From positions 32,001-96,000 of the IMG/VR virus record IMGVR_UViG_651053023_000001: a stretch of DNA of 64,000 bases. The stretch is one strand, 5' to 3'. Shown here piece after piece: positions 9,001 through 12,000 of the stretch. Numbering within the stretch: position 1 is the first letter of the stretch; every line of letters starts with the position of its first letter. The DNA is from a virus. Lineage: Duplodnaviria; Heunggongvirae; Uroviricota; Caudoviricetes. A program made the position numbers.

Positions 9001-12000
9001 CCCTGGGTTCTTAATGAAATCAATTGCACTATCAATTGCATCACTGAAAACCTGTTTCAGGTTATCGACAGTAAAGAAGTTTTTGATGGCGTCTAATTTT
9101 TCGTTCAGGTTCTTTGTTGTGTCACTGAACCATGCTGAAATAGCATCACCAATCTTTGCAGTATAATCACTAAATGTCGTGGATATAGTATCACCAAGGT
9201 TAGAAATATATGTTTCTAAATTGGTAATCCCACTATCAATGGCCTGGGCAATACTTTCCGTCGAAAATGATTGCAACATATTGCCGATATCCTCAAATCC
9301 AAGTGATTTGAGAACGCCGCCAATGGCACTGCTAATACCAGATACCAGTCCTCCCATATCGAGAACGTTAGCCAGTGTATAAGCCGCTTTTTGCTGAAAA
9401 GATGGATCTTCCCCATCCTTAAGCCCAAAGGTCCGACGTTGTGCTTCTGTATCATTCCAACCGGTTACCGCATCATAGATACCTCCAGCCACCGTGCCGA
9501 CTAGCGGAATTGCGCGTAAAGCCCCCTTTGCAAGAGCCTTAACACCTAGTTTCCCCAATCCCTTAGTTGCAAGTTTTCCGGCACCGCGAGTAGCCAATTC
9601 GCCAGCTTCTTTGGCAGCAGCTTTTTTCCCACCAAAGCCCAATAAGCTTGCAACTTTTTTTATACCTAAAGCGCCTAGTGCCATCGAGCCAACTTTCTTT
9701 AGTACCCCACGGCCAAAAATAAGGGAAGCAATACCACCGGCCCCCTTCCCTAACAGGCTAAATAGTTTGGACAGCAAGCCGCCCTTCTTTTTCCCGGTGT
9801 TTTTGGCTATCTGATCAAGGGCGCTGAGAATCTTGTCATTGCCCTCTTTAATTTCGCTGGTCTGCTCCTGAAGTTCCTGAACCGTCCGTTTTTGGGTGTT
9901 AACCTGAACGACATCGGCACTATTTTGCGATTTACGCCTAAAAAAACCTTTTCTACGGCTGTTATCGTCATTGCCACGAATCACATCGGCAATAGACTTT
10001 CTGGCACCATTAAGCGATCCACCAACTTCTTTTGATATCCCGCCAAGCTCCTTCCCTGCTGCCCACAATGGACCAGCAACGGCATAACCTAACGCATCGA
10101 CGGCACGAGTCTCTGAAGGGTTACCTATGCCTTCAGCTACTTTTGACAGTTTTTTTAATAAACCTGATTCAGCATTTAGACGCTCATCATCCTCTTTGCG
10201 CCTGGCCTTTTCAGCACGTTCAGCACGGGCATCTTCCGCTGCGGCCTTACTCCCTGACTTTCCAATAAAACGACCACGCGCATCGCGTTGGTTTTGGCTT
10301 TTTTGCGCACCGCCTTTTTGATCGAACATTTTGCGAGCGTGTTCGGCTGCTTCGGTCCGTTGTGCCTTTATATCCTCTGGTATAGCCTTCCTGCGTCGTT
10401 TTTTACCCTTTGGTGTAGTTGATTTGGCCTGCTGTTCCTGTTGAGCAATGCCCTCCTGAACTACACGAGAAACGTCCCCTAAATTAAGCCGTTTCATTGC
10501 ATCAACAATAGGGTCTACTGATGGCGCATTGGCCACAAAGTCTGGCCGGGAATTTTCGATTGTTCGATTTAATGCCGACACACTGCGAGATACTGGGTCA
10601 ACCGTTGCAACGCGTTCCCCTTTCAAATCACGATCGAGTTTGACCGTTTCTAACCGCTGTGCTTTAACATCCTCTGTTATTGCCTCTCTTCGTCTATTTG
10701 GGGGATTGTGCGCTGTTGGTGCAGCCTGCTGTTCACGGTTAGTGACTTTGTCCTCCCGTATACGAGAAACGTCCCCTAAATTAAGCCGTTTCATTGCGTC
10801 AACAATAGAGTCCACTGATGGCGCATTGGTCACAAAGTCAGGACGTGAATTTTCGATTGTGCGATTTAATGCCGACACACTGCGAGAGACAGGATCAACA
10901 GTTGCAACTCGTTCCCCTTTCAAATCTTCAACAGCTTCCCGAATACCTGCAAGCTCTTCCAGCTCTTTCGCGCTGGCGGTTTCAACTGTCCTTATAACAT
11001 CGTCAATATTGGCGTTTTTTCTTTCCATGATCTTATCGCCTACCGTTTCGGTTTAAGTTTTTCTTCCAGTTTCTCCAACAGGAAAAACGCATAGGATTCA
11101 GTAAGCCTTTCAGCGTCCTGAATCGGTATACCCCCATACAAAACCAGGTTGGACACTAAGGTCTGATAGCTTTTCAATCCCCACCTGTGGAATGAAGTCG
11201 GTAGCCCGAAAGGGCACCCACAGACGGGTATATGCACCCTCTGTGGACTCCTTTTTATCCTGATTTGGGCATTTATGCGGCGGGAGACGAAGACGCATTT
11301 CACCTTTATCGATGTAGCACGGTAAACCATGTTCGAGCTTTTCATGAGCCAGTCGGATGTGTGCCGCCAGCTTCATAAATTCAGTATCAATGGCCATCCG
11401 TTTAATCGTTTCATAACGACGCTCAGCCTGATCTTCACGAGTACCGCTAACATCGTTATAAAGCTCACACTGATAAGCGAATTCCCAAAAACGCAAATCA
11501 ACGATCGCTTCTTTGAATTCCGCGTCGTCTTCAGGTGGCAATGCTGCACGGCGCATCTCCAGCATTTCCATTGCCCAACCATCAAGCGGCACGATACGCC
11601 ATTGATAAGGTACTCCCTCTACAGACACCTCAATATCGTCAATGAAAGGTTCCACTTCCAGGACCTGGATATCTTCAGCCAGAGCATTCATATCGCAATC
11701 GTAATAATGCTCTTTACCGCAATGTTTACAGGTGTAGGTGAATGTCTCGACCGGTGTTTCACGGGAGCCGGTAAATATCCACCATAACGCGGTAATCCGG
11801 TCCTGCGCCGTCCATGTCAGGGGATCATGTTTCGCGGGTTCAGCAAGCAAGGCTTTTAAATACGCCGTTGTCTGTTGTTCTTGTTCCTCCGGTGTTATCG
11901 AGTTGAAACGCATCGCATCAGCAATATTTGGCTGACGGAACTGGATCAATTCAGTTGGCCGCGATGGTAGCGGGAAAAGAGGTAAAAGCATCCTTGCTCC

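What the first reader, a model, noticed from the sequence alone, without database searches (positions are those of the whole stretch)
10330..10925. In-frame tandem duplication of a 99-codon unit in the sit-like gene
Seen: two adjacent ~297-bp units whose first ~165 bp are near-identical and whose remainder is diverged, encoding twice the segment LKGERVATVDPVSRSVSALNRTIENSRPDFV...AMKRLNLGDVSR. In tape-measure-like proteins length scales with tail length, so a duplication could alter tail or injection-apparatus dimensions. It may also be an assembly expansion. The antisense ORF 10529-11056 is a by-product of the repeat.
Basis: seen in the sequence. Interest (0 to 1): 0.5.

Follow-up and report, generated by a model that had tools for sequence, protein, structure and literature searches.

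The report
Copy-number-variable module in P1 tape-measure gene
The repeat is real: the tail tape-measure gene (sit) of this P1-like phage-plasmid carries two copies of a 99-codon module where phage P1 has one. It is a common natural allele (other plasmids have one or three copies), so it is a fairly ordinary repeat polymorphism that may give slightly longer tails.

Summary
Two in-frame 297-bp units lie head to tail at window 10630-10926 and 10333-10629 (minus strand). Their first 165 nt are 92% identical and their last 132 nt 61% identical.

The gene (7333-11028, 1231 aa) is the orthologue of phage P1 sit. Published work assigns Sit as the tail tape measure protein, and it carries an SLT lytic transglycosylase domain.

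It is not an assembly artefact. The copies differ, and the same junction occurs in 197 complete E. coli genomes, 137 PLSDB plasmids and the plaque-forming phage phi456.

Copy number varies in nature:
- P1, P7, SJ46 and the distant homologue JK004 have one unit.
- About 29-43% of P1-like plasmids have two or more units.
- About 1.5-2% have three.

Three different three-unit alleles, several contraction-type single-unit alleles and mosaic heads show that the array changes by unequal homologous recombination between the conserved heads.

Both heads are under strong purifying selection (dN/dS about 0.05). No compensating deletion occurs elsewhere in Sit.

The likely but untested consequence is a tape measure 99 residues longer, giving a tail about 15-18 nm (about four rings) longer. 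Tandem repeats in tape measure proteins are a known kind of feature, so interest is modest.

The parts
7333..11028 (-). sit orthologue (1231 aa): tail tape measure protein with a lytic transglycosylase domain
   Evidence: ORF list and translation. Megablast gives 99.7% identity to phi456 Sit and 91.6% to P1 sit over 91% of the query. PHROG 2533 matches at E=0. Synteny pmgA-sit-pmgB is as in P1, P7 and SJ46.
10927..11028 (-). N-terminal leader, aa 1-34 (MERKNANIDDVIRTVETASAKELEELAGIREAVE), upstream of the array
   Evidence: The protein sequence is identical in the window, P1, P7, SJ46 and phi456.
10630..10926 (-). Unit 1 (aa 35-133, 'A-type'): head 10762-10926, diverged tail 10630-10761 (IREDKVTNREQQAAPTAHNPPNRRREAITEDVKAQRLETVKLDR). 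This is the extra unit, absent from P1, P7 and SJ46.
   Evidence: The A-type tail was found only in multi-unit alleles.
10333..10629 (-). Unit 2 (aa 134-232, 'B-type'): head 10465-10629, tail 10333-10464 (VVQEGIAQQEQQAKSTTPKGKKRRRKAIPEDIKAQRTEAAEHAR). It corresponds to the single unit of P1.
   Evidence: Its tail is 91-95% identical to the tails of P1, P7 and SJ46, against 61% to the unit 1 tail.
8155..8484 (-). SLT lytic transglycosylase domain (aa 849-958) of Sit
   Evidence: Pfam PF01464, E=4.8e-27.
10529..11056 (+). Antisense ORF (175 aa, TTG start): a by-product of the repeat, not a gene
   Evidence: The stop-free antisense frame is 99, 198 and 297 aa in 1-, 2- and 3-unit alleles, and is interrupted in P1 at 77 aa. 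The sense frame is under strong purifying selection.
10210..10227 (-). Second, tiny in-frame repeat in sit: 9 bp x2 (RAE-RAE). One other allele has three copies.
   Evidence: TRF. Plasmid pAPEC201602 (L011) reads ARAERAERAEKA where the window reads ARAERAEKA.
11110..11991 (-). pmgB (context): the gene upstream of sit, proposed in the literature as the tape measure chaperone
   Evidence: ORF, annotation of P1 and related records, PMC9024508. The same PmgB protein (WP_000926345.1) accompanies 1-, 2- and 3-unit sit alleles.

Best explanation
Shown. The window carries the two-copy allele of a copy-number-variable, in-frame array of a 99-codon module. The array begins right after residue 34 of Sit, the tail tape measure protein of P1-like phage-plasmids.

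Each module has two parts:
- a conserved 55-residue 'head' (DLKGERVATVDPVSRSVSALNRTIENSRPDFVxNAPSVDxIVDAMKRLNLGDVSR);
- a charged 44-residue 'tail'.

The ancestral state is one module, as in P1, P7, SJ46 and the distant homologue JK004.

An old duplication of gene nt 103-399 produced the A-B array seen here. The array then expands (A-A-B) and contracts (back to one unit) by unequal homologous recombination between the heads. It also exchanges sequence patches by gene conversion.

Both modules are kept in frame and under purifying selection, and a phage with the two-copy allele is viable.

Inferred, not shown. Tape measure length sets tail length at about 1.5 A per residue in other phages. P1's own average is 2120 A over 1140 aa, or about 1.9 A per residue. 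The extra 99 residues would therefore add about 150-185 A, roughly four more tube and sheath rings on top of P1's 53. The three-copy allele would add about eight.
For: Repeat anatomy.

Gene identity:
- P1 sit orthologue with an SLT domain.
- Sit is assigned as the tape measure protein and was detected in virions (PMC9024508; PMC12810830).

Copy number:
- One unit in P1, P7 and SJ46 and in JK004, which is 45% identical.
- The A-tail-to-head junction is present in 137 of 378 matching PLSDB records and in 197 E. coli genomes.
- tblastn with unit 1 splits cleanly: 139 PLSDB records at 80% identity or more, and 338 at 60-80%.
- A probe specific to three units matches full length in 8 E. coli genomes and 7 PLSDB records.
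- In an IMG/VR sample, 16 of 78 scorable loci have two units.

Recombination:
- Three different three-unit alleles have crossover points at head sites 39-66, 97-114 and beyond 118.
- Single-unit alleles L070, L018 and L012 have the head patterns expected of contraction products.
- Unit-1 heads in L006, L007, L009, L023 and L040 carry unit-2 patches.

Selection:
- Head dS is 0.32 and dN 0.017.
- The frame is intact in 21 of 22 two-unit alleles and in the three-unit allele examined.

No compensating shortening: annotated Sit lengths are 1130-1147 aa with one unit, 1231-1263 aa with two and 1338-1340 aa with three.

Viability: phi456 has 99.7% identical sit with two units, and forms plaques and myovirus particles.

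Ruler arithmetic:
- P1 has 53 rings with a rise of about 40 A (PMC10304247).
- TP901-1 gives 0.145 nm per residue (PMC5099701).
Against: No tail-length measurement exists for any two- or three-unit phage. The phi456 paper gives none.

Sit is not resolved in the P1 cryo-EM maps. It is therefore unknown whether residues 35-133 lie in the measuring part of the protein.

In TP901-1 about 127 terminal residues do not contribute to length, and the N-terminus is thought to sit at the connector or terminator.

The AlphaFold model of the N-terminal 417 aa has low confidence (mean pLDDT 55). It shows broken helices, not one long helix.

The tail halves of the two units have dS about 1, against 0.32 for the heads. 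A single duplication followed by clock-like divergence does not fit without concerted evolution of the heads or a foreign origin of the A segment.

Database counts are not phylogenetically independent, and the collections overlap.
Confidence: 0.6

Rival explanations
1. Length-neutral polymorphism. The module lies in the part of the tape measure that is buried at the tail terminator or connector, or is flexible or compact. Extra copies are then tolerated without changing the number of tail rings, and the polymorphism is effectively neutral.
For: In TP901-1 about 127 terminal residues do not count towards length, and the N-terminus is proposed to contact the head-tail joining region. The unit contains several prolines, and the model is low-confidence with broken helices. 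Alleles with 1, 2 and 3 units coexist in the same plasmid backgrounds and with the same PmgB protein.
Against: The extra head is under strong purifying selection (dN/dS about 0.05), so it is not junk. Experimental in-frame deletions in the TP901-1 tape measure changed tail length linearly. Duplications in other tape measures are reported to do the same, from my own knowledge of the lambda gpH and T4 gp29 work. P1's 1140-aa Sit is already short for a 2120 A trunk, which suggests that most of the protein is needed as ruler.
Confidence: 0.33
2. The module is a functional binding element whose dosage matters, rather than a spacer. Candidate partners are the chaperone candidate PmgB, the terminator gp24 and the end of the packaged DNA (the B tail carries KGKKRRRKA).
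For: The 55-aa head is highly conserved, and its motifs are still recognisable in JK004 at 45% overall identity. The B tail has a basic patch, which is weaker in the A tail.
Against: Nothing here points to a partner. There is no Pfam hit outside the SLT domain, no PDB relative and no confident fold. This reading does not exclude a length effect.
Confidence: 0.05
3. Assembly artefact: a collapsed or expanded repeat, with the true genome holding one unit.
For: None beyond the general risk with tandem repeats.
Against: The copies differ by 8% in the head and 39% in the tail. The identical architecture appears in hundreds of independent complete assemblies and in three deposited phage records. Its frame is intact.
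Confidence: 0.01
4. The antisense ORF 10529-11056 is a real gene, and the repeat serves it.
For: It is a 175-aa ORF with a TTG start.
Against: Its length tracks copy number mechanically, and the frame is broken in P1. Substitution patterns fit selection on the sense frame. No record annotates a gene there.
Confidence: 0.01

Closest known systems
Sit of bacteriophage P1 (YP_006507.1; 'putative structural injection transglycosylase; putative tail ruler')
   Same: It is the orthologue: 91.6% nucleotide identity over 91% of the gene, the same pmgA-sit-pmgB synteny, the same SLT domain and the same 34-aa N-terminus.
   Different: P1 has one 99-aa module (1140 aa). The window has two (1231 aa). The extra module has a tail only 61% identical in nucleotides and about 44% in amino acids.
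Sit of Escherichia phage phi456 (WNL49372.1), and of vB_EcoM-673R5
   Same: phi456 has the same two-unit allele: 99.7% nucleotide identity, 1231 aa, and units identical to those of the window.
   Different: Essentially nothing. This shows the allele is already in public records, although the phi456 paper does not discuss the duplication.
Tandem repeats and engineered duplications or deletions in tape measure proteins (lambda gpH, T4 gp29, TP901-1 TMP)
   Same: These are in-frame repeat units inside a tape measure protein whose number changes protein length. In TP901-1, tail length follows TMP length at 0.145 nm per residue. Tandem repeats are recognised contributors to TMP length variation (PMC13585406).
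   Different: Here the variation is a natural polymorphism within a single phage group (1, 2 or 3 copies) of a long 99-aa unit at the extreme N-terminus of a myovirus tape measure. The TP901-1 repeats are short internal repeats in a siphovirus. The effect on tail length is untested here.

Membership tests
P1 Sit / tail tape measure protein with SLT domain | Sequence orthology to P1 Sit over the full length | tested here: met
   Megablast covers 91% of the gene at 91.6% identity; the uncovered part is the extra unit plus small indels. PHROG 2533 matches at E=0, with aa 134-1231 aligned to profile positions 35-1130.
P1 Sit / tail tape measure protein with SLT domain | Lytic transglycosylase (SLT) domain in the C-terminal third | tested here: met
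   PF01464, E=4.8e-27, aa 849-958.
P1 Sit / tail tape measure protein with SLT domain | Position in the tail gene cluster between pmgA and pmgB | tested here: met
   Window ORFs 6977-7336, 7333-11028 and 11110-11991 match the annotated order in P1, P7, SJ46 and phi456.
P1 Sit / tail tape measure protein with SLT domain | Virion component that determines tail length | not testable with these tools
   For P1 itself, Sit was detected in virions and assigned as the tape measure by size and helicity (PMC9024508). It is unresolved in the cryo-EM maps (PMC12810830). No genetic length test is reported in the papers read.
Tape measure tandem-repeat length polymorphism | In-frame tandem units inside the tape measure gene | tested here: met
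   Two units of 297 nt, in frame.
Tape measure tandem-repeat length polymorphism | Copy number differs among close relatives without loss of the reading frame | tested here: met
   Alleles with 1, 2 and 3 units exist. The frame is intact in 63 of 64 single-unit alleles, 21 of 22 two-unit alleles and the one three-unit allele sampled.
Tape measure tandem-repeat length polymorphism | Tail length scales with copy number | not testable with these tools
   This needs EM of 1-, 2- and 3-unit phages. The phi456 paper gives no tail length.

The most novel reading that the evidence does not exclude
Natural P1-like phages exist in discrete tail-length classes of about 53, 57 and 61 rings, set by 1, 2 or 3 copies of the N-terminal Sit module. 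The classes interconvert by unequal recombination, and the two main ones are kept at intermediate frequency because tail length matters on some hosts. This would be a natural allelic series that tests the ruler model in an ultra-long contractile tail.
Probability: 0.3. Interest if true: 0.5.

Novelty: new member of a known kind. Interest (0 to 1): 0.3.

Why it matters
The P1 tail is unusually long (2450 A, 53 rings). Its tape measure is unresolved in cryo-EM and, at 1.5 A per residue, too short for the trunk.

A ready-made natural series of Sit alleles differing by exactly 99 and 198 residues would allow a simple test. It would show whether the N-terminal region measures length, and at how many angstroms per residue.

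The practical consequences are small:
- The allele explains the roughly 1231- and 1340-aa 'Sit' proteins in databases.
- It explains some pseudogene calls at this locus.
- It is a useful recombination marker for typing P1-like phage-plasmids.

Tried and rejected
- Tandem Repeats Finder did not report the array. The repeat finder and direct alignment did.
- The big protein-database search with the N-terminal 328 aa returned only 18 mostly truncated proteins, because word candidates saturated. It gave no view of copy number, so I used DNA searches of plasmid, E. coli and IMG/VR collections instead.
- I looked for a source of the diverged A tail:
  - tblastn against phages found it only in the multi-unit alleles (phi456, 673R5, 813R1). 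Otherwise only B tails matched, at 44%.
  - tblastn against plasmids gave a clean two-class split with no intermediate.
  - The one outlier, E. fergusonii pTB91P2, is a frameshift-ridden single-unit copy.
  - No donor was found.
- The hits in two pieces spanning 397 nt looked like possible three-unit alleles. They are two-unit alleles whose unit-1 head carries unit-2 patches.
- AlphaFold on a single sequence gave mean pLDDT 55. I did not run a fold search on it.
- The PDB sequence search of the N-terminal 261 aa found nothing.
- The Lobocka 2004 P1 genome paper is not in the held library.
- Literature searches found no description of this polymorphism.
- The assembly-artefact and antisense-gene readings were considered and rejected (see the rival explanations).

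Full report
**1. The observation**

The repeat finder on window 9000-12500 finds a single direct-repeat family with a spacing of exactly 297 nt. Aligning 10333-10629 with 10630-10926 on the minus strand needs no gaps. Identity is 92.1% over the first 165 nt of the unit (the 'head') and 60.6% over the last 132 nt (the 'tail').

The units are in frame inside the 1231-codon ORF 7333-11028 on the minus strand. They encode aa 35-133 and aa 134-232. Each starts with DLKGERVATVDPVSRSVSALNRTIENSRPDFV..AMKRLNLGDVSR.

**2. The gene**

The ORF is the orthologue of phage P1 sit:
- 99.7% nucleotide identity to Sit of phage phi456, and 91.6% to P1 sit over 91% of the query.
- PHROG 2533 matches at E=0.
- An SLT domain lies at aa 849-958 (PF01464, E=4.8e-27).
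- It sits between pmgA and pmgB, as in P1, P7, SJ46 and phi456.

The window as a whole is a P1-like phage-plasmid. The first 25 kb match such plasmids at 97-98% identity, and tRNA-Asn, tRNA-Thr and a CAU-anticodon tRNA are present.

P1's RefSeq note calls Sit a 'putative tail ruler'. Virion proteomics and size arguments assign it as the tape measure protein (PMC9024508). The 2026 cryo-EM study treats it as the tape measure but could not resolve it (PMC12810830).

**3. One unit or two?**

P1 (1140 aa), P7 (1130 aa) and SJ46 (1137 aa) have a single unit. Its tail is 91-95% identical to the window's second unit and only about 61% identical to the first. The extra unit is therefore the N-proximal one, called 'A' here; the second is 'B'. 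The only distant homologue in the phage collection is Cronobacter phage JK004 (45% identity over the whole protein). It also has one unit, so one unit is ancestral.

The two-unit allele is common:
- A 201-nt probe across the A-tail to B-head junction matches full length in 137 of 378 matching PLSDB records and in 197 complete E. coli genomes. About 457 E. coli genomes carry any unit.
- tblastn with unit A splits 478 PLSDB records cleanly. In 139 the match is at least 80% identical and there are two places per record. In 338 it is 60-80% identical with one place.
- In 80 IMG/VR loci, 16 have the A-B array and 62 a single B unit.

Three-unit alleles also exist. Phage vB_EcoM-813R1 has one, as does plasmid pEC2_5 with an intact 1340-aa ORF. 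A probe specific to three units matches full length in 8 E. coli genomes and 7 PLSDB records.

These collections overlap and are not independent samples, so the fractions are rough: about 29-43% with two or more units, and about 1.5-2% with three.

**4. Not an artefact, and functional**

- The copies differ, and the architecture recurs in hundreds of independent complete assemblies.
- The reading frame is intact through the array plus 600 nt in 21 of 22 two-unit alleles and in the three-unit allele sampled.
- phi456 is spontaneously induced, forms plaques on MC1061 and gives myovirus particles (PMC10967188).
- Between the two heads dS is 0.32 and dN is 0.017, so both copies are under purifying selection.
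- Annotated Sit lengths show no compensating deletions: 1130-1147 aa with one unit, 1231-1263 aa with two, and 1338-1340 aa with three.

**5. How the array evolves**

I scored thirteen sites that distinguish the two heads of the window in about 110 units.

Expansion. Three different three-unit alleles have a middle unit with an A tail and a hybrid head. The switch points lie at sites 39-66 (plasmid of strain A_5), 97-114 (pEC2_5 and pRIVM_C029554_1) and beyond 118 (pEC12-3). That means at least three independent A-B to A-A-B expansions by unequal crossover between heads.

Contraction. Three single-unit alleles have the patterns expected of contraction products:
- L070: a full A-type head on a B tail.
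- L018: a switch between sites 39 and 66.
- L012: a full B-type head.

Conversion. Many unit-A heads carry B-type patches (L006, L007, L009, L010, L023, L028, L039, L040).

Head-mediated crossovers can never leave an A tail in a single-unit allele. None was found.

The commonest single-unit head shares the A state at sites 18-66 and the B state at sites 81-118. The diverged part of the two-unit allele is therefore one contiguous 297-nt core: the 3' half of the A head, the A tail, and the 5' half of the B head. My inference is that the flanks, which can pair collinearly with single-unit alleles, have been homogenised by recombination.

A tails are nearly invariant (0.7% mean pairwise difference, n=24). 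B tails differ by 5.9% (n=85), and A differs from B by 39%. Tail dS is about 1, against 0.32 for the heads. That fits one of two histories:
- an old duplication with concerted evolution of the heads;
- import of the core from an unsampled, diverged Sit.

I could not decide between them.

**6. What it probably does**

This part is inferred. In TP901-1, tail length falls linearly with deletions in the tape measure, at 0.145 nm per residue. About 127 terminal residues do not count. The P1 trunk has 53 rings with a rise of about 40 A, or about 2120 A for 1140 aa. That is about 1.9 A per residue, so most of Sit seems to be needed as ruler.

Ninety-nine more residues would add about 150-185 A, roughly four rings and 6-7% of tail length. 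The three-unit allele would add about eight rings.

Several points weigh against this:
- The N-terminus may sit at the terminator or connector and not measure length.
- The AlphaFold model is poor (mean pLDDT 55) and shows interrupted helices.
- No tail measurement exists for any multi-unit phage.

I give about 0.6 to the whole account. The anatomy and recombination part is near-certain. The tail-length step is roughly even odds against the length-neutral rival.

**7. Comparison with what is known, and novelty**

Tandem repeats and duplications in tape measure proteins, and their effect on tail length, are well established. The two-unit Sit is already deposited and annotated in many records. 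I found no paper that describes this polymorphism.

It is therefore a new, well-documented example of a known kind, not a new kind of system. Its value is as a natural allelic series for testing the ruler model in P1's ultra-long contractile tail.

**8. Antisense ORF**

ORF 10529-11056 lies in an antisense frame of the unit that has no stop codons. The open stretch is 99, 198 and 297 aa for 1-, 2- and 3-unit alleles, and it is broken in P1.

Noticed in passing
window 10210-10227 (inside sit, minus strand): A 9-bp tandem repeat (TTCAGCACG x2, encoding RAE-RAE) is also copy-number variable. Plasmid pAPEC201602 (L011) has three copies (ARAERAERAEKA).
   Followed up: partly
window about 9450-9750 (Sit aa about 430-520) and about 8400-8440 (Sit aa about 865-875): Sit has other allelic blocks. 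The Gly/Ala/Lys-rich hydrophobic region comes in a P1-type and an SJ46-type version (the window has the SJ46-type). P1 also has about 9 extra residues (STLTRSPNGKLSGG) inside the SLT region. Two-unit N-termini occur with both versions of the hydrophobic block (window versus p91), so sit is a recombination mosaic.
   Followed up: partly
L005 (phage vB_EcoM-813R1, ON470617.2), L095 (NZ_CP195583.1), L096 (NZ_CP060935.1): Three-unit sit genes are annotated as fragments or pseudogenes. 813R1 has single-base homopolymer frameshifts that look like sequencing errors. In NZ_CP195583.1 the first 480 codons are intact, yet RefSeq splits the gene into a partial pseudogene plus a CDS. This may be an annotation effect of the repeat.
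   Followed up: partly
window 36282-36435 and 37867-37942: Three tRNA genes were found: Asn-GTT, Thr-TGT, and a CAT-anticodon tRNA called Met by ARAGORN. From memory, P1 carries a similar tRNA set; I did not check this here.
   Followed up: no
literature, not the window: PMC9024508 quotes a 120 nm P1 tail when arguing that Sit's roughly 750 helical residues fit the tail. The cryo-EM papers give 2450 A with 53 rings (PMC10304247). At 1.5 A per residue, the 1140-aa Sit is too short for the trunk, an arithmetic gap that none of the papers I read addresses.
   Followed up: partly
L014 (E. fergusonii pTB91P2, NZ_CP070875.1, 1-900): The sit N-terminus in this record is riddled with frameshifts across all three frames. 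It is either a degraded copy or a low-quality assembly.
   Followed up: no
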